From positions 134,035 through 198,034 of the forward strand of contig JAFRTE010000007.1 of assembly GCA_017427285.1 (NCBI GenBank): 64,000 bases of DNA. Direction: 5' to 3'. Positions within the stretch are counted from its first letter, which is position 1; each line of letters starts with the position of its first letter. Position numbers and translations under genes: made by a program. The stretch is from Clostridia bacterium. Lineage in GTDB: Bacteria > Bacillota > Clostridia > Oscillospirales > UBA644. A model generated the notes under the pieces. It made no database searches, was not told the DNA's origin, and saw only the letters and a list, made by a program, of their open reading frames with translations. Positions 3,915 to 33,347 of this stretch are shown piece after piece.

Positions 3915-5036
3915 TTATATTACTAGGTTTTGCATTTTATCGCAGTAATATTTGACGTTGTCCCACTTTGCATCGGGCGCAATCCTGTGGTCGGGACATG
4001 GAATATACCCGCCGAGGTCGATAAGGCGCTTAAGTCTTTCTATTTCCTTATCTACAGCGGAATAGTCATGAGCAAATACGCGTTTATCCATTCCGCCTAC
4101 GCCGCGGACATAGTTTCCGTATTGCTTTCTCCACGGTTCGATGCTTGCCTGCCATGTACCGACTTCGATCGGGAACATTGTATTAACTCCGCCTTTGAGC
4201 CAGATGGGGACGAGCTTGTCTATACATCCGTCGCAGTCTAGAGAAATGATATCGACGCCGTGTTCGAAAAGCAAGTCGGAAATCTTTCTGTAATGAGGAA
4301 GAACGTATTCTTCAAAGACGTCGGGGTTTACGAGCGGTCCGTTTTTAAAACAGATATCTTCCCAGTAATGGCAGAAATCGACCTTAACGCCCGTTGAAAA
4401 TACTGCTTTGGCGTTTTCATAGGCAATATTTGCGATCGTATCGATTATTTCAACAAAAAGGTCTTCGTCATCCGCCTGAAGGTATGCGAGATTTTCAACG
4501 CCGAGCATATCGCGGATACAGCCGTAAAGACTACCAACGTGATATCCGACGGGACGGTCGGTAATGCTGTCAAACTCCTGTTTTTTTGCTTCTATCGCTT
4601 TAAGGTCATACCGTTTTTCGGATGGCTGAAGTTTGGGAAGATAAAGCTCTTCCCACGCCTTTCTGTCTTCAAGCAAAGTGCCGATGGTTGCGGGAATAGA
4701 CGATACTCCGCGCTTTAATTTTTCGATAAGTCCGTTTCCGTTCTGAGAGATTATCCAACCATCGCCAAGATCCTGAATGACCTTGCTTTCAAACGACGGC
4801 ATAAGCCCGGTATGAGAGGAAAACATCGCAGACCATGCAAAATCAAATCCGAGCTTTTCACATATTTCCTTGCAGGAACCGCCGTTATCCCAGTAATGAG
4901 TTGCCTCCCATTCGGTTAAATAGCCCTCTTCTTTCCATTTGGTGAGTGTTTCGCCCCAGAAACCGAAGTGGACGACGGGCATTTTATCATAGTTTTGATA
5001 ATGCAAAATAGCATTTACTCTTTCGCGTGAATTCAT
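3915..5036 (-). CDS. Uroporphyrinogen decarboxylase (URO-D)-family protein
   Basis: About 373 aa. The N-terminus RERVNAILHYQNYDKMPV and overall length resemble URO-D/MtaA-like proteins, judged from memory. Start 5036 is preferred because GAGG lies 6 nt upstream; the ORF-track start is 5048. Confidence 0.55.
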   Translation of the reverse strand: MNSRERVNAILHYQNYDKMPVVHFGFWGETLTKWKEEGYLTEWEATHYWDNGGSCKEICEKLGFDFAWSAMFSSHTGLMPSFESKVIQDLGDGWIISQNGNGLIEKLKRGVSSIPATIGTLLEDRKAWEELYLPKLQPSEKRYDLKAIEAKKQEFDSITDRPVGYHVGSLYGCIRDMLGVENLAYLQADDEDLFVEIIDTIANIAYENAKAVFSTGVKVDFCHYWEDICFKNGPLVNPDVFEEYVLPHYRKISDLLFEHGVDIISLDCDGCIDKLVPIWLKGGVNTMFPIEVGTWQASIEPWRKQYGNYVRGVGGMDKRVFAHDYSAVDKEIERLKRLIDLGGYIPCPDHRIAPDAKWDNVKYYCDKMQNLVI

Positions 5037-5193
5037 ATGTGACCTCATAATTATGATTTCTTTTTTTTATATTATAAAAGTTAACGAAGGATTTGTCAAG
5101 TGTTTTCGGGAACTTATTATCAATAATTTTGTTTTAACTTATTTTTTGAGCAAAAAGAAGCTCAAATAAATTATGAAAAATCTGTAAACACTC

Positions 5194-5222
5194 TTGAAAG
5201 TTTAAAAAGATTATGCTATAAT
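5194..5222 (+). promoter_or_regulatory. Sigma-A type promoter of tRNA-Pro
   Basis: TTGAAA, 17-nt spacer, TATAAT, located about 25 nt upstream of the tRNA. Confidence 0.6.
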
Positions 5223-5247
5223 ATCCAAGCTTAACAGAAAAAAGCAT

Positions 5248-5323
5248 CGGGGTGTAGCGCAGATGGTAGCGCGCTTGGTTCGGGACCAAGAGGTCGCAAG
5301 TTCAAATCTTGTCACTCCGACCA
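5248..5323 (+). tRNA. tRNA-Pro (anticodon CGG), CCA encoded
   Basis: Cloverleaf folded by hand. Acceptor CGGGGTG/CACTCCG, anticodon stem CTTGG/CCAAG with loop TTCGGGA, T-loop TTCAAAT, 3' ACCA. Confidence 0.9.
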
Positions 5324-5334
5324 TGTTTGGCGGT

Positions 5335-5436
5335 CTAAATAGATCGCCCCCTGAAAATCGGCGTTTTTCGCCGATTTTCTTCGTTTTTTCTCCGTTTTTC
5401 TCGCTTTTTCATTTTTCAAAAAACTGGTGAGTTTCA
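5335..5436. repeat. About 100-nt tRNA-downstream repeat, copy 1 (copy 2 at 13909-14009)
   Basis: Aligned by eye to 13909-14009 with only a few substitutions or indels. Includes the terminator hairpin and a T-rich tail. Confidence 0.8.
5354..5385 (+). terminator. Intrinsic terminator downstream of tRNA-Pro
   Basis: Stem AAAATCGGCG, loop ttttt, stem CGCCGATTTT (10 bp), followed by T-rich sequence. Confidence 0.7.
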
Positions 5437-5644
5437 TAGATCGGCTGGGTCATTTCGGGCACCATGAGAGGATACGAACCTTTTTCACGATGTTCTGAAC
5501 TACCCGATCATGGCCATCAAAACCCGCATTTTCCACATCTACCCCTACCAGCTTCACCAAACAATTCAAAACCCAATACATTTTTTTAGCCAACTGAATC
5601 AAAAACTCAGAAATATCGATTTTTTCGAAGGCAAATCCTGCAGA

Positions 5645-6016
5645 TTACTCTGCAAATAAGACATCGCCGTTTTCCAACCTTCCCCATAGGATTCCGTCGG
5701 GACATGTCAGACCGATTTCAATGACATTCGACCATTCCGATACTTTGTCGGCGAAACTGCAGCCACAATCGGAGGGGACAAGTACAGCGCCGTTTTTAGA
5801 TAATGCTATCGGATATTGATCAGTATAAACATCTATAACAATTGCATACAGGACATCATGCCAGTTTTCAATTTCTGATATGTCATGCATATAATCGCCC
5901 GCAACGAAAACTCTGCCTTCATTATCAACGCCTACTGTTATACCTGCTCCATCTGTACGATTTGTATCTATAAAAACTATATCTGACCATAAAGAAGTAT
6001 ACTGGGTATTGCCTGC
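5645..6016 (-). pseudogene. 5'-truncated paralogue fragment of the adjacent 6274-7509 lipoprotein gene
   Basis: The frame is open from the TAG at 6017-6019. The peptide YTSLWSDIVFIDTNRTDGAGITVGVDNEGRVFVAGDYMHDISEIENWHDV aligns with SIWENIKWISIDSMSHSTITGVNKDGTVLIAGEYNHDKAIIESWTDV of the neighbour. It has no signal peptide or N-terminal region. Confidence 0.7.
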
Positions 6017-6273
6017 CTACATAACCTGATCGTCTTTGTAGATCATTAGGCAGGGGCGAAGCAAGGCGTAAGCAAAAAAGAAAGGAAGGATGCATCATTG
6101 AAAATGACAAGACACAACGGAAGGTCGGGAATGCATGGGACGTATAATCCAACACATAATGACTGACTAATGACCGACATTTCAGGCGGTCTCAAATCAA
6201 AATCAACACCTAGATTGTTTTTTCTGAGTTACGAATTGCCTGTGAACCACAGTAATATACAGATTTAGTACGG

Positions 6274-13810: not shown

Positions 13811-13897
13811 GCGGGTATGGCGGAATTGGCAGACGCGTTAGATTCAGGTTCTAATGGCCGCAAGGTTGTACAGGTTCAAGTCCTGCTACCCGCACCA
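13811..13897 (+). tRNA. tRNA-Leu (anticodon CAG), long variable arm, CCA encoded
   Basis: Acceptor GCGGGTA/TACCCGC, anticodon stem TTAGA/TCTAA with loop TTCAGGT, T-loop GGTTCAAGTCC, 87 nt. Confidence 0.9.
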
Positions 13898-18954: not shown

Positions 18955-20772
18955 TTATTTTGCGGGAATCCATACGGTCATATCCGTTTCGCCGCGGTTT
19001 TCCATACCGTAATACGGGATAAATTTAAGTTTTCTCGGTCGGAACATACGTTTATCCGCGGGATAATACAGAGCGTCGTTTTCACAGATTTCGTATCCGC
19101 TGCAATTTATGACCGGCAAAGAGAAATACGGATCGGGAGTTATTTCAAAATCCGCGTCAAGGTCCGCATACAAAGAGAAAATATCGCCTTCATTGTCAAC
19201 ACCTTCGAGGCAGTAGACTATCGGGCCGTATTGCAAAGCGACTTTGCCGATATTTTCGTGAATTGACGAAGATGCCACAAACTGCGGTCTGATATTGAAA
19301 TCAATGTCAACAGATGAAATGTCGGTAAAATAAGCGTAGCCGTCTTTCATTGTATATTTTTCGGATGCGCGGAAATTGCGGCACCAAGACGGAACACGAA
19401 GAGCAATATTTTTGTATCCGCTTGTCTCGATTTTTACTTTTCCGTTTGAAGGATAATCCGTGATCTGCTTTACGGTTTTGCCGTCAAAAGACGTTTCGGA
19501 GTTAATATACTGATGCACAAACAGGGTCTCGGCATCGTCGGTATAAAGGAAATCGGCGATCGACGCTATAAATCTCAGTATATTCGGAGGACAGCAGGAA
19601 CAACCGAACATTTTTACTCTCTGTGTGATCGGATAACGCTCTTTTTCTGCTGTTGCTGGGTTTTTATGATGATTTTTCACTTCGATCCTGAGCGGATTTT
19701 CGTAAAAGAAATCGTCACCGTTTACAGAAACGCCGGAAATGCTTCCGTTATACATTGCAATTTCGGCAATATCACCGTATGCTCCGACGGGCTTAATCTG
19801 ATACATTCTGCGGCAGAAAAGCGCAAGCCCAATAGTGGCGCAGGTTTCGGTATACGCCGTTTCGTTCGGAAGATCGTAATCTACAGTAAAGGCTTCGCCG
19901 AGTCTTGAAGATCCAACACCTCCAGTGATATACATACGCTTTTCGGAAACGTTGCGAAAGATTTTTTCGCACGCGCTAAAAAGAGCATCATCGCTGCATT
20001 CTCTTGCCAGATCCGCCATTGCGGCACAAAGATACATTGCTCTTACGGAATGTCCTTCTGCGGTAGTTTGCTCGCGAACGGGAAGCTGATCCTGGAAATA
20101 CCACGGAGTAGTCCAATTTGCATAATGATTTTTATCTTTTTCGTTGCAGCCCTTTGAATCGATAAAGAATTTTGAAAGGTCGAGATATTTTCTGTCGCCG
20201 GTCGTATGATAGAGTTTAACGAGAGCAAGCTCTATTTCTTCGTGACCGGGAGTAACGAATGCGGCGGAACCATCTTTAACAAACACTCTGATAATCAATT
20301 CGAGGTACTTTTTCACCAACGTGAGCAGCTTATCCTTCCCGGTAGCGTGATAATAAGCCGTTGCGGCTTCAATGAGATGGCCGAGGCAGTAAAGCTCGTG
20401 ATTCATACGGTTTGTAAAACGTTTATCTGTTTCGTAAACGTTATAATAGCAGTTGTAGTACCCGTCTTCTTTCTGACTTGCGCACATATCGTCTATAAGC
20501 GCATCCGTCATGGCTTCAAGTCTTTCGTCACGGTTTTCCTCCAGATAATACGCAACGCCTTCAATCCATTTAGCGACGTCTGAGTCCCAGAAGATATGAG
20601 AATGCCAGCCCTCATTTTTCTGTTGTTCTCCGTTGCATTTCAACGCCTCGAAACGCTTTGTTTCTTTAAAACGGTCATAAACCGCATCAACGGTAACATT
20701 TTTTGAAACACGCTGTTTTTCTCCCCAGAAAGAACCGTTGATATGCGTGCAGTAAAAAGGAATCTGCCTCAT
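18955..20772 (-). CDS. Glycoside hydrolase family 127 (DUF1680, beta-L-arabinofuranosidase-like)
   Basis: 605 aa with HELYCLGHLIEAA, ETCA and CSCCPPN Cys-cluster motifs. Confidence 0.8.
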   Translation of the reverse strand: MRQIPFYCTHINGSFWGEKQRVSKNVTVDAVYDRFKETKRFEALKCNGEQQKNEGWHSHIFWDSDVAKWIEGVAYYLEENRDERLEAMTDALIDDMCASQKEDGYYNCYYNVYETDKRFTNRMNHELYCLGHLIEAATAYYHATGKDKLLTLVKKYLELIIRVFVKDGSAAFVTPGHEEIELALVKLYHTTGDRKYLDLSKFFIDSKGCNEKDKNHYANWTTPWYFQDQLPVREQTTAEGHSVRAMYLCAAMADLARECSDDALFSACEKIFRNVSEKRMYITGGVGSSRLGEAFTVDYDLPNETAYTETCATIGLALFCRRMYQIKPVGAYGDIAEIAMYNGSISGVSVNGDDFFYENPLRIEVKNHHKNPATAEKERYPITQRVKMFGCSCCPPNILRFIASIADFLYTDDAETLFVHQYINSETSFDGKTVKQITDYPSNGKVKIETSGYKNIALRVPSWCRNFRASEKYTMKDGYAYFTDISSVDIDFNIRPQFVASSSIHENIGKVALQYGPIVYCLEGVDNEGDIFSLYADLDADFEITPDPYFSLPVINCSGYEICENDALYYPADKRMFRPRKLKFIPYYGMENRGETDMTVWIPAK

Positions 20773-20924
20773 TTAAAGAAGCCCCTTTCATAATAAATTT
20801 CATATTTGAATTGTCTGATAAAAAGACAAAACCATACATATACAGTATACACCAAGTAAATGAATATGTCAACAGAAAAGTTTTGAAAAATTGATATCCG
20901 CAAACTGTTTTTTTGCGCGTTGTG

Positions 20925-20953
20925 TTGACAATTTGGAATATTTACATTATAAT
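20925..20953 (+). promoter_or_regulatory. Sigma-A type promoter of the DUF4037 gene
   Basis: TTGACA, 17-nt spacer, TATAAT, about 40 nt upstream of ATG 20994. Confidence 0.6.
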
Positions 20954-20993
20954 ATAATCGTGAATAGCGATAAAGTCCCGAAAGGATATCAAA

Positions 20994-21944
20994 ATGAACA
21001 GCGTGACGGATAAAAACAGATATTTTTACGAAAAATACGTTGCAAAGCTTATACGCGAAAGATTTTCGGAATATGAAAACAGAATTGCGGTAGGGATCGC
21101 CGGCGAAGGATCGGACTGTTTCGGGTATGACGACGAAATATCGAGAGATCACGATTTCGGGACAGGCGTCTGTCTTTGGCTGACTGATGATGATATGAAG
21201 CTTTTCGGATATCAGCTTTCGATAGCTTACAATGAACTTGTGGACAGCAAGTCGCGTTCTTATTATACCGACAGACTTCGCAACAGACGTGGTGTTATGA
21301 CGATACACGGTTTTTACTCGGATATCCTTCAGATCGACTGCGATACGGAAAACTGCGCTTTAACCGAAAGCGACTGGTACAGACTTGACCATTCATGTCT
21401 GAAAACAGCGACGAACGGAGAGGTTTTCCGCGACGACCTAGGGGTCTTCACTAATTTTCGTAATTATCTGCTCAGTTACTACCCTGAAAAGATATGGAGA
21501 AGAAGGATCTCAGAGCAGCTGCATGAATACGCTTCATCCATTCAGGTAAATTACGCGAGATGTATGACGAGAAAAGATATCGTTGCTGCGGAGCTGTGCA
21601 AGGCAAGAGGGATAAACGCTGCTATGGAACTGTTTTTCCTTCTCAGCCGAGAATATCCTCCGTATTACAAATGGAAATACAGAGCTCTTTCGGACCTTGA
21701 CAAGGACGGAAGTTTTTCGGAGAAAATAGGAGAGCTTGCGTCTGAAAACATCAGTATTCAGGCGTGGGAAGATACAAAGTACCGTCCGAACAGACTGAAC
21801 TATAAAGACAGAATAGTGTCTGTATCGGAAGAGATCGCCTCCGAAATCGAACAGATGATGATAAAAAAAAGGATGACTCAGGCAAAAGGAAGATATCTGG
21901 AACTGCATGTAGACGCTGTTTTAAATAATAACGGCACAAAATGA
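20994..21944 (+). CDS. DUF4037-like (nucleotidyltransferase-associated) protein
   Basis: 316 aa. The N-terminal GIAGEGSDCFGYDDEISRDHDFGTGVCLWL segment recalls DUF4037 proteins, judged from memory. Confidence 0.55.
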   Translation: MNSVTDKNRYFYEKYVAKLIRERFSEYENRIAVGIAGEGSDCFGYDDEISRDHDFGTGVCLWLTDDDMKLFGYQLSIAYNELVDSKSRSYYTDRLRNRRGVMTIHGFYSDILQIDCDTENCALTESDWYRLDHSCLKTATNGEVFRDDLGVFTNFRNYLLSYYPEKIWRRRISEQLHEYASSIQVNYARCMTRKDIVAAELCKARGINAAMELFFLLSREYPPYYKWKYRALSDLDKDGSFSEKIGELASENISIQAWEDTKYRPNRLNYKDRIVSVSEEIASEIEQMMIKKRMTQAKGRYLELHVDAVLNNNGTK

Positions 21945-21987
21945 ACTGCGATTTAGGCGTTCTCTCCTGCCCCGACATCGGTTTATT

Positions 21988-22041
21988 ATGCTACTTACTG
22001 TCTTTTTTTGCAACTTACTGCCTTAAAAATGCAACTTACCG
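21988..22041 (+). repeat. Three direct 13-nt repeats (consensus wTGCaACTTACyG) at 20- and 21-nt spacing
   Basis: Copies at 21988-22000 (ATGCTACTTACTG), 22008-22020 (TTGCAACTTACTG) and 22029-22041 (ATGCAACTTACCG), directly upstream of the 22051 promoter. Confidence 0.7.
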
Positions 22042-22050
22042 ATAAAGGGG

Positions 22051-22079
22051 TTGACGAATCGCGGTTTTCGGGTTATACT
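22051..22079 (+). promoter_or_regulatory. Sigma-A type promoter pointing toward the RT 3' end, antisense to the 17-codon ORF
   Basis: TTGACG, 17-nt spacer, TATACT. Confidence 0.55.
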
Positions 22080-22126
22080 ATAATCACAAAAGACAAACCG
22101 ATTATGAATAATTCGATTTTTTTCAT
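22073..22126 (-). CDS. 17-aa hydrophobic peptide MKKIELFIIGLSFVIIV (candidate type I toxin-like or small membrane peptide)
   Basis: AAGGAGG lies 7 nt upstream of the ATG at 22126. Two Lys residues are followed by an uninterrupted hydrophobic stretch. It is too short for the ORF track. Confidence 0.4.
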   Translation of the reverse strand: MKKIELFIIGLSFVIIV

Positions 22127-22185
22127 ATATTTTCCTCCTTTCTTAATGTTAGACGAAAAGCTCCGAGCAGTATCGGAGCTTTTTT
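22086..22185 (+). ncRNA. Predicted ~100-nt antisense RNA covering the 17-codon ORF and its SD
   Basis: Bounded by the 22051 promoter and the plus-oriented terminator at 22156-22185. No plus-strand ORF with an SD is present. Confidence 0.4.
22156..22185 (+). terminator. Intrinsic terminator with T6 run on the plus strand; also lies 3' of the RT gene
   Basis: AAAAGCTCCGA, loop gcagta, TCGGAGCTTTT, followed by TT. Confidence 0.7.
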
Positions 22186-22195
22186 GTTGCAGGAA

Positions 22196-23404
22196 TTAAT
22201 CGGATTTTTGTTTTCTGCGCGAATAGTATTCGTGAACGAGGCATTTATAGCCCAGATTTTTAATGTCTTCGTATCTGACATCAAATCGGGCTTTTGTATG
22301 TTTTCCTTTAATAAGATAGCGTATACAGTCCTGTGCGTAGCGGTCGATTTCGCAAAGACTCGCGGACGTGCTTATCACGGGGAAAAACCAGTCGCTCCAG
22401 CAAAGCTCGTTATCACGGGCGTTTTCGAGGAGTTTTCGGTTGAATACGCGGATAAACGCCTTTGCTGCGCGTTCGCCCGAAGCTTCGCTCCTGTCTTTCC
22501 AACGTTTTAAGGCGTCACGTTTTCTTCGCATTTTCTGTTTCAGTTTTTTGACCGTTGCGGGCGCAATATCAACATAAGGTCCTTTGCAGAAAAAACCGAG
22601 GAACGTAAAGCCCTCGCCGGGAGACGTAAATACTTCTTTTGAAGGATTTACGGACAGTTTATGAGAGGATAAAAAAGCTTTTATGTAGTCCGCATAAGCA
22701 AGGACGGTTTCTTTATCCTTTGCGAAAACGATGATATCGTCGGAATACCTGGCATATATTATCTTTTTTTCATAAAAATATCCGTCGAGCTTATAAAGAA
22801 AGAGATTTGCGAAAAAGGAGGAAAGCGGAGTCCCGGCCATGATACCTTTTTTTTCCGATACGGTCTTTCCTTTGTCTGAAACGAGAGGTTCTTTAAGCAG
22901 AGATATCAAAAACGCCAAAAGCTCGGGATCTTCCGCACAAACGTTTTCGAGCATAGGAAGAAGGAGATCGACCGGTATGGAATTGAAATAATCGCTGATA
23001 TCGACTTTATATGAATAACAGGCATCTAAATATCGGTGTTTAAGCAGATACCTCACAGCATCCTTCGCGGTCCTTTGAGGGCGGAAAGAATATAGGTTCG
23101 GAGAAAAAAGAAAGTCGTATTTCCTTAAAATCAGCCACGTCAGCAGCTTTAAAACGGTATTTTCGTCATCAGGATAAGTATAAACGACGCGTTTCTTTTC
23201 CGAGCCGAGTTTGCTTATAACCGATTTGACAGGCAACGGAAACGGTTTTCCGTTTATGATATTTTCAGCAACGGGAATATAACGCTTTGCATCAATAAAC
23301 GCCCGAAGCTCGGATACAAATTGCTTAGGACTTGCAAGAGACTGTTTGTATAAATAAAACCGTTCCCATACGGATTCATCCGACAGGAGATAGAGAAGTG
23401 ACAT
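22196..23404 (-). CDS. Stand-alone reverse transcriptase (RNA-directed DNA polymerase), non-intron, non-DGR
   Basis: 402 aa. RT motifs YSFRPQRTAKDAV, YKVDISDYFNSI, GTPLSSFFANLFL, YARYSDDIIVFA and FTFLGFF. Helical thumb-like C-terminus. Confidence 0.9.
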   Translation of the reverse strand: MSLLYLLSDESVWERFYLYKQSLASPKQFVSELRAFIDAKRYIPVAENIINGKPFPLPVKSVISKLGSEKKRVVYTYPDDENTVLKLLTWLILRKYDFLFSPNLYSFRPQRTAKDAVRYLLKHRYLDACYSYKVDISDYFNSIPVDLLLPMLENVCAEDPELLAFLISLLKEPLVSDKGKTVSEKKGIMAGTPLSSFFANLFLYKLDGYFYEKKIIYARYSDDIIVFAKDKETVLAYADYIKAFLSSHKLSVNPSKEVFTSPGEGFTFLGFFCKGPYVDIAPATVKKLKQKMRRKRDALKRWKDRSEASGERAAKAFIRVFNRKLLENARDNELCWSDWFFPVISTSASLCEIDRYAQDCIRYLIKGKHTKARFDVRYEDIKNLGYKCLVHEYYSRRKQKSD

Positions 23405-23414
23405 TTAAATCTAC

Positions 23415-23558
23415 CAAAAAAAGCAGAAAGAAAAGACGTTAAATCCCGTAAATTACGGGATGTACAAGACCGTACACGGACATGCTGCCTGCGAAGCCGT
23501 TTTTCCGTCCGTGCCGGGTCCGCCGCAGGCGCAAAGCGTTTTCTTTCTGCTTTTAAGC
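23415..23558 (-). ncRNA. Candidate RT-associated structured ncRNA (retron msr-msd-like or DRT template-like)
   Basis: ORF-free region. A 16-nt perfect inverted repeat (23554-23539 with 23434-23419) encloses 104 GC-rich nt containing 7-8-bp stems. Its own promoter lies upstream. Confidence 0.55.
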
Positions 23559-23565
23559 ATATATA

Positions 23566-23574
23566 ATTATATCA
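23566..23574 (-). promoter_or_regulatory. Extended -10 promoter element TGATATAAT for the ncRNA/RT transcript
   Basis: The TGA is the stop codon of the 171-aa ORF. TATAAT is at 23571-23566. The inverted-repeat arm begins about 12 nt downstream. Confidence 0.5.
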
Positions 23575-24087
23575 GCCATTCAGCACATTGCGCATACGGC
23601 TGACAACATATGCGCGCGTGTTCCACCAACCCTCATGGTTATAGTAAAAGCGCAGATAACCGATGTTTGCGTTTTTGCAGTCGCTGCGCAGTTTATATGC
23701 AGAACAGGATTCCGGCATCAGTTCAACGACAAGGATCTTTCCCGCCGCGCCGTAAAAAGAGTAAACGATCCTTCTTCCGCCGCGAAGTATTTCTTTTTCA
23801 TAACAGTATGAAGAAAACTCGGAGTTGAAAATCGATTCGAAATACTGTGTGAAAGAACCGTTAAAATTAAACTGGTTTTCTTCATCAGGCATATTTTCGC
23901 CCCATGATAATCCTGACGATGAAGCAGAAGACACCTGCCTTGCGGCGGGAGCGACGGAAGAAGCTGTATTCTGACTGTTTTGAGTCGAGGTATTTTGCTG
24001 CGTATTTCCGAGAAGTCCCGTTAAAAAATCCTTCGCCGCTTTTTCGGCTTTTTTATCTCCGCCGAGAAGTTTTGACAGTAAGCTCAT
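23572..24087 (-). CDS. Hypothetical protein: low-complexity Q/S/T-rich N-terminus plus ~100-aa C-terminal globular domain
   Basis: 171-aa ORF immediately upstream of the ncRNA/RT on the same strand. I recognise no family. Confidence 0.6.
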   Translation of the reverse strand: MSLLSKLLGGDKKAEKAAKDFLTGLLGNTQQNTSTQNSQNTASSVAPAARQVSSASSSGLSWGENMPDEENQFNFNGSFTQYFESIFNSEFSSYCYEKEILRGGRRIVYSFYGAAGKILVVELMPESCSAYKLRSDCKNANIGYLRFYYNHEGWWNTRAYVVSRMRNVLNG

Positions 24088-24144
24088 AGTTTTTCCTTTC
24101 TGTAAATTCGGTAAGAGTGTGATTTTTCCAAAGTATAATCGGTA

Positions 24145-25326
24145 TTATAATTTTTCAAAAATAAGATGGGATATTTCCCCGAAAATTGTGCATTCCCGAG
24201 ATTTTTCGGTCAGTACGGTCTCCTTGCCGTCCGCGACGATTTTCTGATGAGTAAGATTTCTTGCAAGGACCGTAGGATATTCGGGGCGAAGGTCCTTTTC
24301 GGGCGGCCTTCGTAAATTTGTGATTTCAAAACCGTCGCAATGTTCCTCGGCAACTATCAGGTTAGTTGAATCGAAGGCGCCTTCGGTAAAATAAAAAGTG
24401 CAGTCCGATATTTTTACGTCGGAAACGTTGCCAACGCCGTTAGGCGCACTTTCCTCCTTAAAAAGAGGAGTTCTGCAATATCTTGCGGCATCCATATTTA
24501 TTCCGTTGCAGCGACAGCCCGCAGTGATATTTTCTATGCGGATATGCTTTATCGGAGATGTAACGGAAGCGAACCTGATTGCCGAATGGCAATCTTCGGC
24601 ATAAATATTTTTACAAACGATATTTTCTATCGGTCCGCATGCAAGACCTCTGTTTTCGTGTCTGAAAAGAGAGTCGTCTGCATTGAAAGCGAGAAGATCG
24701 TCGTTTGTCTGTCCCTTCACGAGCGCTCTGATATTTTCGACAACTCCGTCGCGGCAATATCCGCCGAAATGGATGCCGTCCTGGTTAGGACCAAGTGTAT
24801 CGGAGGTCAAACCTATATTTTTCAGTTCAAAACCGCGGACCCTGCTGAGCCGGATATAAAATGCCATTGAATTTGCAACAGTAAGATTTAAAAGTCTGAG
24901 ATTTTTTACGGTAACGAAATTTAAACATGCGCAGCTTGCCGCGCCGATTTCGTAAAGGTCGCGCGGTTTAACATTAAATTCTCTTCCTAAACCTCCGTCC
25001 CAGACGCCGCCCTCAACGGTAATATCTTCGTTGCCGTCCTCTTCGTCGGAATTTGTCAGGAGAAAATCGCCCTGAACAGGCTTTCTTTTATAAACAAAAA
25101 TGATCCTTGCGTCAGAATCTGCATGAATATGCCTGTGAGAAGGAATTTTTATAGCGTCGTTTACGATATATGTGCCTTTAGGGATAACGATATCTTTTTC
25201 TCCGAAGTCAAGCGCCGCCTGAATTGCGGGCTGATCGTTGGCAATGCCGTCGCCTTTTACGCCGAAATCAAGGATATTGATCATTTTCGGTAGACCTTTC
25301 TTTGCATAAATATAGATTTTTTTCAT
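24145..25326 (-). CDS. Right-handed beta-helix protein of the pectate-lyase superfamily (GH28-related)
   Basis: N-terminal INILDFGVKGDGIANDQPAIQAAL motif. An alternative start at 25284 is possible. Confidence 0.65.
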   Translation of the reverse strand: MKKIYIYAKKGLPKMINILDFGVKGDGIANDQPAIQAALDFGEKDIVIPKGTYIVNDAIKIPSHRHIHADSDARIIFVYKRKPVQGDFLLTNSDEEDGNEDITVEGGVWDGGLGREFNVKPRDLYEIGAASCACLNFVTVKNLRLLNLTVANSMAFYIRLSRVRGFELKNIGLTSDTLGPNQDGIHFGGYCRDGVVENIRALVKGQTNDDLLAFNADDSLFRHENRGLACGPIENIVCKNIYAEDCHSAIRFASVTSPIKHIRIENITAGCRCNGINMDAARYCRTPLFKEESAPNGVGNVSDVKISDCTFYFTEGAFDSTNLIVAEEHCDGFEITNLRRPPEKDLRPEYPTVLARNLTHQKIVADGKETVLTEKSRECTIFGEISHLIFEKL

Positions 25327-25519
25327 ATACTGTTTTCTTAATAATATAATAAATGGTTTGATTTGTCAAGTATTTTGCTGAAAAAATAAGGAAAAACGGA
25401 ATAATTCGCCGATAAATCGCCTTTGTGGAAAAAAATTTCATATAAAAGTAACGAAATTACTCTAAAATTATGATAGAATATATGAGCAAAATTTTGATTG
25501 AATCGATGATTTTGAAAAA

Positions 25520-26368
25520 ATGAGAATAATAGAAAACAAAAACTTTCCCAACGAAAGAGACCTCTACGGAGAAAGCGGACTTATACTTAAAAACTGCACG
25601 TTCACCGGTGAAGAAGACGGCGAGTCCGCGCTGAAAGAGTCAAGAGACATAACGCTTGAAAAATGCGTTATGGATCTCAGATATCCTTTATGGCACGACA
25701 GAAACGTTGTTTTGAAAGACTGCGAAATGACTGAAAAATGCCGCGCCGCCCTCTGGTATTCTGAAAACATTGAGATCTACGGCGGCAAAATGTTCGGAAT
25801 AAAAGCATTGCGCGAGTGTGCTGATATAACAATGAAAAACGTTACGGTAAATTCACCCGAATTCGGCTGGAGAAGTAACGGCATAAAAATCGAAGAATGC
25901 GATATAACCGGCGAATATCCTTTTTTTGAGGCGAGCGGGTTAAAGTTTGACAGAGTAAAGCTAACGGGTAAATATTCATTGCAGTATACGCACGATATTG
26001 TTATAGAAAACTGCGTATTTGATACGAAAGATTCTTTCTGGCATGCAAAAAACGTTACGGTCAAAGACAGCATAATAAACGGCGAATATCTGGGCTGGTA
26101 TTCTGACGGATTGACGCTTGAAAGATGCAGGATAAAAGGGACTCAACCGTTTTGCTACTGCAAAAACCTTACGCTTATAGACTGTATAACGGAAGATGCC
26201 GATCTGGCGTTTGAGTATTCGGACGTTAATGCGACCATAAACGGAAATATCGTATCGGTCAAAAATCCCCGCAGCGGGAATATCACTGCCGACAGCATAG
26301 GCAAAATAATATTAACGGACAACAGCAAGTATGAATGTAACTGTAAAATAACAGTACGAAAAGAATAA
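25520..26368 (+). CDS. DUF3737-like beta-helix repeat protein
   Basis: 282 aa with periodic repeats (xxC/NxTF, LKDCxM, IENCVF). Family recalled from memory. Confidence 0.5.
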   Translation: MRIIENKNFPNERDLYGESGLILKNCTFTGEEDGESALKESRDITLEKCVMDLRYPLWHDRNVVLKDCEMTEKCRAALWYSENIEIYGGKMFGIKALRECADITMKNVTVNSPEFGWRSNGIKIEECDITGEYPFFEASGLKFDRVKLTGKYSLQYTHDIVIENCVFDTKDSFWHAKNVTVKDSIINGEYLGWYSDGLTLERCRIKGTQPFCYCKNLTLIDCITEDADLAFEYSDVNATINGNIVSVKNPRSGNITADSIGKIILTDNSKYECNCKITVRKE

Positions 26369-26373
26369 AAGTA

Positions 26374-26408
26374 ATCCGCACGGAATTAGCACCGTGTGGA
26401 TCTTTTTA
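26374..26408. terminator. Hairpin terminator between convergent genes
   Basis: ATCCGCACGG / CCGTGTGGAT stem with one G-U pair, followed by CTTTTTATTT. Confidence 0.6.
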
Positions 26409-26669
26409 TTTCGTTTTTTTGAATGTTCCGGCAATTATGAAAGACAATATAAGCAAAAGTATAATCGCAAAAAGAAAAACAGCGCCTTTTTTGATATCAA
26501 CATCGAGTTTAATGCTGATTTTTTCCGATAAAAAATCCGAAAAGGATCTTGTACGTTCGGCTGTATTTTTATTATCCGAGACATCCAAATAACCGCCGCG
26601 AATTTTTGAAAATACCGAATCGGTGATATTTCCGATGGTATCGTAAAGCACACTTAAAAGTTTATTCAT
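26406..26669 (-). CDS. Small C-terminally anchored membrane protein, unknown function
   Basis: 87 aa with C-terminal TM AVFLFAIILLLILSFIIAG. Last gene of the ffh-trmD operon. Confidence 0.55.
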   Translation of the reverse strand: MNKLLSVLYDTIGNITDSVFSKIRGGYLDVSDNKNTAERTRSFSDFLSEKISIKLDVDIKKGAVFLFAIILLLILSFIIAGTFKKTK

Positions 26670-26678
26670 AAAGACACC

Positions 26679-27377
26679 TCACTTTTTTGATTTTTTAAGA
26701 TATCTTCTGTATAGGTCCCCTCGCCTCTGGCGGGTGATTTCAAGTGATTTTTCAAGTTTCCATTTTGCTATAAGCGCGTGATTGCCGTTTTGAAGCACCT
26801 GAGGCACTTCGAGCCCCTCATAAACCGGAGGACGGGTATACTGCGGATGCTCGAGAAGACCGGAATATATGCTTTCGTCTTCGTAGCACGAACTGTCCGC
26901 AAGAACGCCCGGAACCATTCGTGAAACTGCGTCCACGACAGCCATTGCGGGTATTTCGCCACCCGTAAGGACATAATCGCCCAATGATATTTCTTCATCT
27001 ACGATCAAGTCTATTGCGCGCTGATCAAGACCCTCGTAATGACCGCACAGGAGAGTGATATTGCTTTTTTTTAAAAGAGATTTTGCTTTGAACTGAGTGA
27101 ATTTCTTTCCTTTCGGAGACAGATACACGCAGTAAGTATCGGGGACGGCGCTTTTAATATGATTGAAACAGTCGCAAACGGGCTGCGGCTGCATCACCAT
27201 ACCTTTTCCGCCGCCGTAGACATAATCGTCAACGCGATTGTGTCTGTCTTTTGTGAAATCGCGGATATTATGACAGACTACTTCTATAAGTCCCGCTTTT
27301 CTTGCTCTTCCGATTATGCTTGAAGAAAGAAAAGCGTCAACCTCTTCGGGGAAAAGAGTCATTATATCGAATCTCAT
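26679..27377 (-). CDS. trmD: tRNA (guanine37-N1)-methyltransferase
   Basis: N-terminus MRFDIMTLFPE plus LCGHYEGLDQR and GGEIPAMAVVDA motifs. GAGGA lies 5 nt before ATG 27377; the ORF-track start is 27392. Confidence 0.92.
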   Translation of the reverse strand: MRFDIMTLFPEEVDAFLSSSIIGRARKAGLIEVVCHNIRDFTKDRHNRVDDYVYGGGKGMVMQPQPVCDCFNHIKSAVPDTYCVYLSPKGKKFTQFKAKSLLKKSNITLLCGHYEGLDQRAIDLIVDEEISLGDYVLTGGEIPAMAVVDAVSRMVPGVLADSSCYEDESIYSGLLEHPQYTRPPVYEGLEVPQVLQNGNHALIAKWKLEKSLEITRQRRGDLYRRYLKKSKK

Positions 27378-33271: not shown

Positions 33272-33347
33272 TGGGATATAGCCAAGTCGGTAAGGCACAG
33301 GACTTTGACTCCTGCATCCGCTGGTTCGAGTCCAGCTATCCCAGCCA
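33272..33347 (+). tRNA. tRNA-Gln (anticodon UUG), CCA encoded
   Basis: Acceptor TGGGATA/TATCCCA, anticodon stem CAGGA/TCCTG with loop CTTTGAC, T-arm GCTGG-TTCGAGT-CCAGC. Confidence 0.9.

What the first reader, a model, noticed from the sequence alone, without database searches (positions are those of the whole stretch)
22196..23404. Orphan 402-aa reverse transcriptase whose motifs fit neither retron, DGR nor mobile group II intron RTs
The palm and fingers motifs are clear: YSFRPQRTAKDAV, YKVDISDYFNSI, GIMAGTPLSSFFANLFL, YARYSDDIIVFA (YxDD box) and FTFLGFF. A ~110-aa helical C-terminus follows (WSDWFFPVI...YLIKGKHTKARF) and resembles a thumb/maturase-X region.

From established family signatures, three known classes do not fit.
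- Retron RTs usually carry NAxxH and a VTG triplet after motif 7; both are absent here.
- DGR RTs carry an SQ-containing motif 4; it is absent, and no TR/VR repeat pair is visible.
- Mobile group II introns carry ribozyme domains and En or DNA-binding extensions; none is visible.

No cas genes are present. The gene sits alone between glycoside-hydrolase genes. This is the typical context of defence-associated RTs (UG/DRT, Abi, retron), which act with an ncRNA or a fused or neighbouring effector. I cannot assign it to a named UG/DRT class by eye.
Basis: partly seen in the sequence, partly recalled or inferred. Interest (0 to 1): 0.8.

Follow-up and report, generated by a model that had tools for sequence, protein, structure and literature searches.

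The report
UG26 reverse transcriptase with RT-5 RNA
The reverse transcriptase is real and intact, but it is neither an orphan nor unclassifiable: it belongs to the named but experimentally untested UG26 family and is one part of a conserved three-part unit (small partner protein, structured RNA, enzyme).

Summary
The 402-aa ORF at 22196-23404 (-) and all quoted motifs are confirmed. The interpretation "orphan, fits no class" is wrong.

- **Class:** the protein matches PADLOC's RT_UG26 model end to end (E 7e-171). UG26 is a Class 2 UG/Abi reverse transcriptase.
- **Partner protein:** the 171-aa ORF directly upstream (23572-24087, -) matches the PADLOC RT-associated model RTasCOG2852 (E 2e-58).
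- **RNA:** the gap between the two genes holds a full-length Rfam RT-5 RNA (89.7 bits; gathering score 45.7).
- **Conservation:** across 80 genomic loci the accessory is present in 75 and the RNA in 77. Starting from the RNA instead, the RT follows in 66/67 contigs and the accessory precedes in 76/77.
- **RNA structure:** covariation supports the Rfam helices, a pseudoknot, and a 16-bp purine/pyrimidine closing helix that lies outside the Rfam model.
- **RT fold:** group II-intron-like (GsI-IIC, TM 0.72-0.75), but no intron ribozyme is present.
- **Context:** neighbours are housekeeping genes, not a defence island. No phage or plasmid copies were found.

Most likely it is an RT-RNA complex that makes RNA-templated DNA, like DRT2, DRT9 and DRT10. 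The template, the product and the biological role remain unknown. It is a new member of a known, uncharacterised kind.

The parts
23572..24087 (-). Accessory protein gene (171 aa). It has a conserved N-terminal helix motif (MSLLSKLLGG), a variable low-complexity linker (about aa 28-58), and a conserved C-terminal domain of about 105 aa.
   Evidence: PADLOC RTasCOG2852, E 2.4e-58, profile positions 1-166 of 167. No Pfam or NCBIfam hit. Found upstream of the RT in 75/80 genome loci and upstream of the RNA in 76/77 RNA-first contigs. AF2 pLDDT >90 for aa 65-170, with alpha-beta-beta-beta-alpha-beta-alpha topology. Invariant residues: P67 E69 N71 Q72 Y82 F83 E122 C137 R146 Y148 G153 W154 W155 N156 Y160 V161 R164.
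23566..23574 (-). Extended -10-like box TGaTATAAT overlapping the accessory stop codon. It may be an internal promoter for the RNA and RT in this genome.
   Evidence: Read directly from the sequence. Not conserved: a -10-like box is found in only 14/72 loci, so the operon is probably co-transcribed as a rule.
23416..23554 (-). Full structured ncRNA, about 139 nt: closing helix P0, pseudoknot, P1, P2, P3, P4 and a U-tract.
   Evidence: On 72 sequences, 48 pairs are 94.7% paired against 39-50% for slid controls; 38 pairs show double-sided changes; 0 of 500 shuffles reach the observed value. MFE -57 kcal/mol, z = -4.16.
23431..23534 (-). Core of the ncRNA that matches Rfam RF03026 (RT-5 RNA).
   Evidence: cmscan: 89.7 bits against a gathering score of 45.7, E 1e-18, model positions 1-104 of 104.
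23539..23554 (-). P0 5' strand (AAAAGCAGAAAGAAAA), purine-rich. It is followed by a nearly invariant CGC at 23536-23538.
   Evidence: Perfect 16-nt inverted repeat with 23419-23434 (I3). P0 is 94.2% paired and 14/16 pairs covary. The 5' strand is 90% purine across loci.
23419..23434 (-). P0 3' strand (UUUUCUUUCUGCUUUU), pyrimidine-rich. It runs into a U-tract ending about 12 nt before the RT start codon.
   Evidence: A U-tract (at least 6 T in 10 nt) is present in 83% of loci.
23523..23530 (-). Pseudoknot 5' strand (GCCUGCGG).
   Evidence: Pairs with 23487-23494. 99.7% of cells are paired, with compensatory changes at 4 of 8 positions (UA>CG x3, GC>AU, CG>UA, CG>GU).
23487..23494 (-). Pseudoknot 3' strand (UCGCAGGC), which is the apical loop of hairpin P3.
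23499..23506 (-). The only variable single-stranded loop (GGAAAAAC here), lying between P2 and P3. Some relatives carry extra hairpin insertions here.
   Evidence: Alignments. Usual length 7-10 nt. No excess of A-B-A' repeats over shuffles.
23439..23443 (-). Invariant unpaired UUUAA between hairpin P4 and the P0 3' strand.
   Evidence: Invariant columns T117-A121 of alignment A5; information profile.
22196..23404 (-). UG26 reverse transcriptase (402 aa). It comprises an N-terminal helical extension, fingers and palm (YSDD at aa 220-223, nt 22736-22747), a thumb, and a C-terminal helical region.
   Evidence: PADLOC RT_UG26, E 7.1e-171, positions 1-397 of 398; the next best model scores 117 bits. 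Pfam gives RVT_1 only. Foldseek: GsI-IIC RT TM 0.72-0.75, DRT9 0.62, G2L4 0.66-0.71, DRT2 0.54.
22223..22225 (-). Codon for Tyr394 in the conserved C-terminal motif SLV[H/N][E/A][Y/F]Y. Candidate protein-priming residue (inference only).
   Evidence: The second Tyr is present in 102/106 homologues that carry the motif, followed by a variable tail (median 8 aa). DRT9 primes from conserved tyrosines in its C-terminal tail (PMC12483538).
22156..22180 (-). Intrinsic-terminator-like hairpin (AGCUCCGA-uacugc-UCGGAGCU + UUU) 16 nt after the RT stop codon. It probably marks the 3' end of the module.
   Evidence: Read directly from the sequence. The consensus scan did not list it.

Best explanation
The ORF encodes a catalytically intact member of the UG26 family, a Class 2 UG/Abi reverse transcriptase that PADLOC files under 'DRT'. 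It is the last element of a compact, roughly 1.9-kb, same-strand module (24087 to about 22156).

The module has three parts:
1. A 171-aa accessory protein with an N-terminal helix, a disordered linker, and a small restriction-endonuclease-like-fold domain that lacks the canonical catalytic motif.
2. A structured RNA of about 140 nt. Its core is the Rfam RT-5 motif. It contains a pseudoknot and is closed by a 16-bp purine/pyrimidine helix followed by a U-tract.
3. The RT itself, whose start codon lies about 12 nt after that U-tract.

Shown here: family membership; the conserved three-way linkage in both search directions; the RNA structure, including two elements absent from the Rfam model's annotated helices (the pseudoknot and P0); a group II-intron-type RT fold with no intron; and a chromosomal, non-defence-island setting.

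Inferred by analogy with every characterised Class 2 UG RT (DRT2, DRT9, DRT10): the RT binds the RNA encoded directly upstream of it as a scaffold and copies a short part of it into DNA. Priming may come from the conserved C-terminal Tyr394. The DNA product, together with the accessory protein, would produce the biological effect, most plausibly abortive-infection-type phage defence.

My probabilities:
- UG26 membership: 0.97
- RT and RT-5 form an RNP: 0.8
- RT-5 contains the template: 0.55
- The role is phage defence: 0.45

The overall confidence of 0.6 refers to the combined statement: a UG26 tripartite RNP that synthesises RNA-templated DNA.
For: - **Family:** RT_UG26 matches full length at E 7e-171 and the accessory matches RTasCOG2852 at E 2e-58.
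- **RNA:** RT-5 scores 89.7 bits against 45.7.
- **Protein-first linkage:** accessory in 75/80 loci and RNA in 77/80.
- **RNA-first linkage:** RT in 66/67 contigs and accessory in 76/77.
- **Covariation:** 94.7% paired; pseudoknot 99.7% paired with 4/8 compensatory positions; P0 with 14/16 pairs covarying.
- **Catalysis:** YSDD is invariant.
- **Fold:** the nearest structural relatives are GsI-IIC RT, DRT9 and G2L4.
- **Literature:** UG26 is Class 2 and was sometimes seen with a COG2852-annotated cluster (PMC9226505). [quoted passage not shown] DRT10 (UG17, Class 2) makes ncRNA-templated tandem repeats (10.1101/2025.10.16.682844).
- **Priming lead:** the C-terminal Tyr is conserved in 102/106 homologues.
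Against: - No experiment exists for UG26. The literature search found only the classification paper and one virome survey.
- The published defence-island score for UG26 was 'inconclusive'. My sample of 140 neighbouring genes is dominated by ABC transporters and metabolic enzymes.
- No template signature of the known systems was found. Total RNA length is not frame-preserving (mod 3 = 27/25/20). A-B-A' repeats in the variable loop equal the shuffled expectation. There is no conserved unpaired poly-U in the core.
- The accessory domain lacks the PD-(D/E)XK lysine and the beta-2 aspartate and has no significant structural match. An effector-nuclease role is therefore doubtful.
- The RNA's position and its U-tract are also compatible with a purely cis-regulatory leader.
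Confidence: 0.6

Rival explanations
1. It is a housekeeping or DNA-repair retroelement, not an immune system. On this view it is a free-standing group II-intron-like RT that acts on chromosomal DNA damage, as reported for G2L4, and the small endonuclease-fold protein is a DNA-end or lesion-binding partner.
For: - The setting is chromosomal and among housekeeping genes, with no defence-island enrichment.
- No copies were found on plasmids, phages or IMG/VR contigs.
- G2L4 is among the closest structural neighbours (TM 0.66-0.71).
- The repair role of G2L4 is from my own knowledge of the literature; I did not read it here.
Against: - As far as I know, G2L4 works without a dedicated structured RNA. 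Here a pseudoknotted RNA is linked to the RT in about 97% of loci.
- By HMM the protein is UG26, not G2L.
- The Vsr/DUF559 relationship could not be reproduced: 0 of 57 members hit, even at E<=5.
- Neighbours differ from genome to genome, as expected for an accessory cassette and not for a core repair gene.
Confidence: 0.15
2. RT-5 is mainly a cis-acting leader or attenuator. P0 plus the U-tract would terminate transcription, or RT binding would occlude the ribosome-binding site, so that RT expression is autoregulated. This resembles a group II intron protein binding DIVa. On this view RT-5 is not a template.
For: - The RNA ends 12-30 nt before the RT start codon in most loci.
- The P0 3' strand is followed by a U-tract in 83% of loci.
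- Only 14/72 loci have a promoter-like box of their own, so the RNA lies inside the operon transcript.
- The RT is group II-like.
Against: - A five-helix RNA of about 140 nt, with a strictly conserved pseudoknot and invariant unpaired UUUAA and GUAC segments, is more than a terminator needs.
- The ncRNAs of DRT2 and DRT9 occupy the same position and are scaffolds and templates.
- The two roles are not mutually exclusive.
Confidence: 0.15
3. It is a retron-like system. The terminal inverted repeat (P0) would play the role of retron a1/a2, the nearly invariant G in the CGC just after the P0 5' strand would be a branching guanosine, and the RT would make a short msDNA-like product from the 3' part of the RNA.
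For: - Gene order ncRNA-then-RT plus an accessory protein is retron-like.
- P0 is a 16-bp terminal inverted repeat.
- The CGC after P0 is at least 90% conserved.
- Weinberg et al. 2017 speculated that many RT motifs are retrons (PMC5737381).
Against: - Retron RT models score far below threshold: NF038233 gives 59 bits against 235, and PADLOC retron RT models score at most 57 bits against 566 for UG26.
- No NAxxH or VTG is present.
- Structural similarity to retron RTs is the lowest among RT classes (TM at most 0.5).
- A pseudoknot is not a retron msr/msd feature (my own knowledge).
Confidence: 0.06
4. It is a degenerate or mobile group II intron, with RT-5 as a relic of intron RNA.
For: GsI-IIC RT is the best sequence and structural match (96 bits; TM 0.72-0.75). 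Databases name relatives 'group II intron reverse transcriptase domain-containing protein'.
Against: - There is no Rfam group II intron hit at E<=1 in 19-27 kb, or at gathering threshold in the whole window.
- RNA structure exists only upstream of the ORF.
- TIGR04416 scores 112 bits against 300.
- No flanking repeats or exon-like disruption are seen.
- The RNA is under strong structural selection together with a dedicated protein partner.
Confidence: 0.02
5. One reading: an orphan RT of a previously unrecognised class.
For: None beyond the absence of retron, DGR and group II signatures.
Against: Full-length matches of all three components to existing models: UG26, RTasCOG2852 and RT-5.
Confidence: 0.01

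Closest known systems
UG26 (Class 2 UG/Abi reverse transcriptases; Mestre et al. 2022, PMC9226505; PADLOC model PDLC03764)
   Same: Full-length HMM match (E 7e-171). About 400 aa with no fused domain. The adjacent accessory matches the PADLOC model built for the UG26-associated cluster.
   Different: Nothing places it outside the family. The paper reported the accessory in only 9 of 35 members and mentioned no ncRNA. In this clade the accessory (about 95%) and a structured RNA (about 97%) are near-universal.
Rfam RF03026 RT-5 RNA (Weinberg et al. 2017, PMC5737381)
   Same: Full-length match at 89.7 bits, located next to an RT gene.
   Different: The functional unit is larger than the model: a covarying 16-bp closing helix plus U-tract flanks it. 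The 5' tail pairs with the P3 loop as a pseudoknot, which the model's structure line leaves unpaired. The paper gave no RT class or function and only speculated about retrons.
DRT9 (UG28) RT-ncRNA system
   Same: Class 2 UG RT. [quoted passage not shown] DRT9 is the second-closest structural neighbour (TM about 0.62). Both have conserved tyrosine(s) near the C-terminus.
   Different: DRT9 needs no accessory protein and has a universally conserved poly-U template. RT-5 has no conserved unpaired U-tract in its core. HMM score to Drt9 is only 84 bits.
DRT10 (UG17) RT-ncRNA-SLATT system
   Same: Tripartite: RT, ncRNA and a small partner protein. Class 2. UG17 is among the best secondary PADLOC hits (102 bits). 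In both, a variable loop lies next to a helix.
   Different: The partner here is not a SLATT membrane protein. No excess of A-B-A' repeats was found in the variable loop. The partner gene lies upstream of the RNA.
DRT2 (UG2) RT-ncRNA system
   Same: Class 2, with an upstream ncRNA that acts as scaffold and template.
   Different: DRT2 has no accessory protein. Its concatemeric product encodes a protein. Here RNA length varies without preserving a reading frame. Structural similarity is lower (TM 0.54).
Group II intron RTs (GsI-IIC) and G2L4
   Same: Closest fold over the full length, including the thumb and C-terminal region (TM 0.66-0.75).
   Different: There is no intron ribozyme and no maturase or mobility context. 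It is below the group II RT family cut-off. It has a dedicated pseudoknotted RNA and a partner protein.

Membership tests
UG26 (Class 2 UG/Abi RT) | Full-length match to the family HMM that clearly beats other RT families | tested here: met
   PDLC03764 RT_UG26: 566 bits, E 7.1e-171, positions 1-397 of 398. Next best: generic RT 117 bits, UG27 107, UG4 103, UG17 102.
UG26 (Class 2 UG/Abi RT) | RT domain with an intact YxDD catalytic box and no additional fused known domain (the Class 2 definition) | tested here: met
   YSDD at aa 220 is invariant. Pfam finds RVT_1 only in 402 aa.
UG26 (Class 2 UG/Abi RT) | Co-location with the UG26-associated accessory cluster (cluster 1531, 'COG2852') | tested here: met
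   The upstream ORF matches PDLC03793 RTasCOG2852 at E 2.4e-58, full length. Conserved in 75/80 and 76/77 loci.
UG26 (Class 2 UG/Abi RT) | Placement inside the UG26 clade in the published RT phylogeny | not tested
   The reference dataset was not available here. Only HMM assignment was done.
Defence-associated RT (DRT) in the functional sense | Confers phage resistance that depends on RT catalysis | not testable with these tools
   No experiment on UG26 was found in the literature. The published defence score is 'inconclusive'.
Defence-associated RT (DRT) in the functional sense | Enrichment next to known defence genes (defence islands) | tested here: not met
   140 neighbours from 35 loci. 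Top Pfam families are ABC_tran, AAA_21 and metabolic enzymes. PADLOC hits are mostly ATPase cross-matches, with single DpdF, GajB and PsyrT hits. No background model was run, so this is a qualitative result.
Rfam RT-5 RNA (RF03026) | Covariance-model score above the curated gathering threshold, full length | tested here: met
   89.7 bits against 45.7, model positions 1-104 of 104.
Rfam RT-5 RNA (RF03026) | Base pairs supported by covariation in relatives | tested here: met
   95% paired against 27-43% for slid controls; 24/32 pairs with double-sided change.
Mobile group II intron | Ribozyme domains I-VI flanking the ORF | tested here: not met
   No group II intron family at E<=1 in 19000-27000 or at gathering threshold in the whole window. 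Conserved RNA is found only upstream of the ORF.
Mobile group II intron | RT/maturase reaching the family cut-off | tested here: not met
   TIGR04416: 112 bits against a cut-off of 300.
Retron | Retron-type RT (family HMM; NAxxH and VTG signatures) | tested here: not met
   NF038233: 59 bits against 235. No NAxxH or VTG. TM at most 0.5 to retron RTs.
Retron | Upstream ncRNA bounded by inverted repeats (a1/a2) with a branching G | tested here: inconclusive
   A terminal inverted repeat (P0) and a conserved CGC are present. Branching cannot be tested, and the pseudoknot architecture is not retron-like.
Diversity-generating retroelement | TR/VR near-repeat pair and a DGR-type RT motif 4 (SQ) | tested here: not met
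   No long direct repeat in 21700-24400. No SQ in the protein.
PD-(D/E)XK / COG2852 (Vsr/DUF559-like) nuclease, for the accessory | Sequence similarity to DUF559/Vsr families | tested here: not met
   No Pfam or NCBIfam hit for the window protein. 0 of 57 family members hit any nuclease family at E<=5. No PDB sequence hit. The exhaustive profile search finds only 248 relatives, none bridging to another family.
PD-(D/E)XK / COG2852 (Vsr/DUF559-like) nuclease, for the accessory | Alpha-beta-beta-beta-alpha-beta core fold | tested here: inconclusive
   AF2 topology fits. Foldseek has no hit at E<=1e-3; the best is a protein of unknown function (3nat, E 0.06), with weak EndoMS and EcoT38I hits.
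PD-(D/E)XK / COG2852 (Vsr/DUF559-like) nuclease, for the accessory | Catalytic D ... (D/E)xK residues | tested here: not met
   Only E122 on beta-3 is invariant. The position of the lysine holds M/L/K variably. No conserved Asp on beta-2.
DRT2-like mechanism | Template unit that keeps an open reading frame when concatenated | tested here: not met
   RNA length mod 3 is spread 27/25/20. The template boundaries are unknown, so a sub-segment is not excluded.
DRT10/telomerase-like mechanism | A-B-A' repeat in a variable template loop next to a boundary helix | tested here: inconclusive
   A variable loop flanked by helix P2 and a pseudoknot exists. Repeats of at least 3 nt occur in 61.5% of sequences against 63% of shuffles. 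2-nt repeats cannot be detected.

The most novel reading that the evidence does not exclude
UG26, RT-5 and the accessory form a chromosomal ribonucleoprotein of rumen and gut Clostridia that writes a kind of DNA product not seen in DRT2, DRT9 or DRT10. The product would be templated within the pseudoknotted RT-5 RNA and perhaps primed from Tyr394. The role need not be phage defence.
Probability: 0.2. Interest if true: 0.75.

Novelty: new member of a known kind. Interest (0 to 1): 0.4.

Why it matters
Each Class 2 UG reverse transcriptase studied so far (DRT2, DRT9, DRT10) has revealed an unexpected way of writing DNA. UG26 is one of the families nobody has tested.

This work does not discover a new class. 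It turns a bare family name into a defined, compact experimental object:
- a cassette of about 1.9 kb with three obligatorily linked parts;
- an RNA motif (RT-5) that has had no assigned partner class or function since 2017, now tied to UG26;
- a covariation-backed secondary structure with a pseudoknot and a closing helix to guide mutagenesis.

It also cautions against automatically labelling UG26 hits as 'defence', because the genomic context does not support that.

Tried and rejected
- **Group II intron:** Rfam scans at E<=1 and at gathering threshold found no intron RNA. Rejected.
- **DGR or mobile element:** no TR/VR pair or terminal repeats around the cassette. Rejected.
- **Phage or plasmid carriage:** no relatives in IMG/VR (protein patterns and RNA pattern), GenBank phages or PLSDB. 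One paper lists UG26-type RTs in a few predicted cold-seep viruses, so this holds only for this clade and these collections.
- **Empty-site comparison:** every contig encoding the exact DUF4037 neighbour also carries the module. No insertion boundaries could be defined.
- **DRT2-like coding template:** open frames are frequent (86% against 38% in shuffles), but the sequences are related and length is not frame-preserving. Not supported.
- **DRT10-like A-B-A' template in the variable loop:** no excess over shuffles.
- **GUAC-GGUCYG-GUAC as A-B-A':** the B segment lies inside helix P1, which covaries. Weak candidate only.
- **Dedicated promoter for the RNA:** found in only 14/72 loci.
- **Vsr/DUF559 identity of the accessory:** not reproduced by Pfam, NCBIfam, PDB sequence search, Foldseek (PDB and viral) or the exhaustive profile search.
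- **Fusion partners of the accessory domain:** zinc ribbon, bPH-like domain and proline-rich linkers only. No catalytic clue.
- **17-aa hydrophobic ORF after the RT terminator as a fourth component:** not conserved (2/78 loci).
- **Unread preprint:** a 2026 preprint that mentions UG27 74 times (10.64898/2026.09.22.753630) was listed by the search but could not be opened. I do not know whether it bears on UG26.
Full report
**1. Observation.** All quoted motifs are present, at aa 105, 132, 187, 217, 266, 336 and 363. YSDD sits at aa 220. NAxxH, VTG and SQ are absent. Pfam finds a single RVT_1 domain (E 3.9e-23). More than 3,000 database proteins match at E<=1e-20. The closest clusters outside this species are 60-70% identical and come from Clostridia, Ruminococcus, Lachnospiraceae and Oscillospiraceae metagenome-assembled genomes. 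The catalytic box is invariant among them.

**2. What it is.** PADLOC's HMM library assigns the protein to RT_UG26 over its whole length (566 bits, E 7.1e-171; the next models score 117 bits or less). UG26 is one of the 'unknown group' families defined in the UG/Abi classification. There it is a Class 2 member, was co-located in 9 of 35 cases with a COG2852-annotated cluster, and had an 'inconclusive' defence prediction. No ncRNA was described for it (PMC9226505).

The 171-aa ORF immediately upstream on the same strand (23572..24087) matches PADLOC's RT-associated model RTasCOG2852 end to end (E 2.4e-58).

The 167-nt gap between the two genes contains a full-length match to Rfam RF03026, 'RT-5 RNA' (23431..23534, minus strand; 89.7 bits against a gathering score of 45.7). 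RT-5 is one of 19 motifs reported in 2017 simply as 'found nearby to RT genes', with retrons offered as a speculation (PMC5737381). So the RT is neither orphan nor unclassifiable. All three parts already have names in public model libraries.

**3. The three parts are obligatorily linked.**
- In 80 loci fetched with the RT profile from species-representative genomes, tblastn finds the accessory just upstream in 75.
- nhmmer finds the RNA between accessory and RT in 77 of the 80. Rfam confirms five atypical copies among these, some with large insertions, and finds no RT-5 in the three loci nhmmer missed.
- Of those three loci, two are solo RTs with other genes packed against them, and one contig is too short to judge.
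- For the reciprocal test I searched metagenome contigs for the RNA's pseudoknot signature alone. There were at least 120 hits. A UG26 RT follows on the same strand in 66 of 67 assessable contigs; in the remaining one it lies about 790 nt further on. The accessory precedes in 76 of 77.
- I found no publication linking RT-5 to UG26 in the searchable library. One possibly relevant 2026 preprint on UG27 could not be opened.

**4. The RNA.** On 72 non-identical sequences the Rfam helices are strongly supported: 95% of cells are paired against 27-43% when partners are slid, and 24 of 32 pairs have double-sided changes. Two features go beyond the Rfam structure.
- *Pseudoknot.* The conserved 5' segment GCCUGCGG pairs with the P3 apical loop UCGCAGGC. 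It is 99.7% paired, with compensatory changes at 4 of 8 positions.
- *Closing helix P0.* The whole motif is enclosed by a 16-bp helix formed by 23539-23554 and 23419-23434. In the window this is a perfect inverted repeat. Across loci it is 94% paired and 14 of 16 pairs covary. The helix is 90% purine on the 5' strand and 90% pyrimidine on the 3' strand, and a U-tract follows it in 83% of loci.

The complete RNA is about 139 nt (23416-23554) and ends about 12 nt before the RT start codon. The 147-nt stretch window 23412-23558, which contains it, folds at -57 kcal/mol with z = -4.2.

Unpaired and invariant segments are UUUAA (23439-23443), GUAC-type segments around P1, and a CGC just after the P0 5' strand. 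Only one single-stranded loop, between P2 and P3, is variable in sequence and length.

A promoter-like box upstream of the RNA exists in the window (TGaTATAAT at the accessory stop codon) but in only 14 of 72 loci. The unit is therefore normally one operon. A terminator-like hairpin follows the RT stop codon (22156-22180).

**5. The proteins.**
- *RT.* The model is confident (pLDDT 90.4). It superposes best on the group II intron RT GsI-IIC over its whole length (TM 0.72-0.75). G2L4 (0.66-0.71), group II RNP RTs (0.66-0.67), DRT9 (about 0.6) and DRT2 (0.54) follow, and retron RTs are lowest at 0.5 or less. PDB sequence searches show the same ordering, and no UG26 structure exists.
- *RT C-terminus.* The conserved region ends with SLV[H/N][E/A][Y/F]Y. 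Its last tyrosine (Y394) is present in 102 of 106 homologues and is followed by a variable tail. DRT9 primes DNA synthesis from conserved C-terminal-tail tyrosines (PMC12483538). Y394 is therefore a candidate priming residue, by analogy only.
- *Accessory.* It has a conserved N-terminal MSLLSKLLGG helix, a low-complexity linker, and a C-domain of about 105 aa with invariant E69, N71, Q72, E122, R146, GWWN and R164. That domain is predicted at pLDDT >90 with alpha-beta-beta-beta-alpha-beta-alpha topology.
- *Is the accessory a nuclease?* The topology is the restriction-endonuclease-like core. However, the canonical D...(D/E)xK residues are incomplete. No Pfam, NCBIfam or PDB sequence match exists for any of 57 members. 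Foldseek finds nothing significant in PDB or among viral models. An exhaustive profile search of 1.84 billion representatives finds only 248 relatives.
- *Accessory variants.* Some carry tandem duplications. In others the N-terminal helix is replaced by a zinc ribbon or a bPH-like domain plus proline-rich linkers. This suggests an interchangeable anchor and a constant functional C-domain. I therefore treat the 'COG2852/Vsr-like nuclease' label as unconfirmed.

**6. Context.**
- In the window the module lies between a GH28-like gene and a DUF4037 gene. GH127, uxuA and mannitol dehydrogenase lie on one side, and DUF3737, trmD, rimM and ffh on the other.
- In 35 related loci the four nearest neighbours (140 proteins) are dominated by ABC transporters and metabolic enzymes. 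Apparent PADLOC hits (mad3, mad8, AriA) are explained by ABC/AAA ATPase cross-matches. Integrases and transposases are not among the common families.
- Neighbours differ from locus to locus.
- No relatives were found in IMG/VR, GenBank phages or PLSDB plasmids. One virome paper lists UG26-type RTs in a few predicted viruses.
- No flanking repeats mark a mobile element, and no empty-site variant was found.

**7. How it most likely works.** What is established:
- an active-looking, group II-type RT;
- a dedicated, pseudoknotted RNA of about 140 nt encoded directly upstream;
- a dedicated small protein;
- co-inheritance of all three.

Every characterised Class 2 UG RT uses the ncRNA encoded upstream of it as both scaffold and template. 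DRT2 makes a concatemeric gene, DRT9 makes poly-dA from a poly-U tract with protein priming, and DRT10/UG17 makes tandem repeats from an A-B-A' loop with a boundary helix. By analogy, the most likely mechanism is an RT-RT-5 ribonucleoprotein that copies a short RNA segment into DNA, with the accessory as partner or effector.

I tested the specific template signatures of the known systems and found none. There is no frame conservation, no excess of A-B-A' repeats, and no conserved unpaired U-tract in the core. If UG26 is templated, its template logic is not a copy of the known ones.

The rivals are set out with probabilities in the rival explanations section: a G2L4-like repair role, a mainly cis-regulatory leader, a retron-like branched product, and an intron relic.

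**8. Verdict.** The sequence observation is correct, but its headline interpretation is not. This is a new member of a known, named and experimentally uncharacterised family.

The added value here is fourfold:
- the near-obligatory tripartite architecture;
- the identification of RT-5 as the UG26-linked RNA;
- an extended RNA structure supported by covariation;
- the absence of defence-island context.

Interest is moderate. The class is known, but it is one of the untested Class 2 UG systems, and that group has repeatedly yielded new biochemistry.

Noticed in passing
window 22073-22126 (-), with AGGAGG at about 22134-22139: A 17-codon hydrophobic ORF (MKKIELFIIGLSFVIIV) with a strong ribosome-binding site lies just downstream of the RT terminator on the same strand. 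It could be a small membrane peptide. It is not conserved downstream of the RT in related loci (2/78).
   Followed up: yes
L055 (RT 4905-6206) and L079 (RT 4935-6209): Two UG26 RTs at 58-61% identity to the window RT lack both the RT-5 RNA and the accessory. Unrelated genes are packed directly upstream. They may be solo or decaying copies, or a different subtype.
   Followed up: partly
L059 4825-4915 and 7133-7507: An atypical locus. RT-5 scores only just above threshold (50.1 bits) and its 3' part is diverged. The accessory-like ORF lies downstream of the RT instead of upstream. A tRNA gene is nearby (3057-3141).
   Followed up: no
L007, L012, L027, L042, L043, L053, L067 (variable loop); L008 4816-4972; L064 4799-4977: Some RT-5 RNAs carry an extra hairpin of 10-30 nt inserted in the variable P2/P3 loop. 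Two have 50-75-nt insertions in the 5' half, yet still score above the Rfam threshold. The loop evidently tolerates large insertions.
   Followed up: partly
proteins P0241-P0245, P0247 (tandem duplications); P0356, P0357, P0326, P0337, P0350 (fusions): The accessory C-domain also occurs duplicated in tandem within one protein. It also occurs fused behind zinc-ribbon or bPH-like N-termini with long proline-rich repeats (up to 854 aa). I did not examine the genomic context of these variants.
   Followed up: partly
window 20994-21944 (+): A DUF4037 protein (E 1.9e-32) is encoded convergently with the RT, and the same arrangement is seen in all contigs of this species. It has no PADLOC hit and is not a conserved neighbour in other genomes, so I treat it as unrelated.
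   Followed up: partly
L065 about 4830-4850: In a locus that has the RNA and RT but no accessory gene, a consensus extended -10 promoter (TGcTATAAT) sits directly upstream of the RNA. This fits the RNA-RT pair needing its own promoter when the upstream gene is missing.
   Followed up: no
window 5248-5323, 13811-13897, 33272-33347 (+): Three tRNA genes (Pro-CGG, Leu-CAG, Gln-TTG) are the only other Rfam or ARAGORN features in the 64-kb window. None is adjacent to the module.
   Followed up: yes
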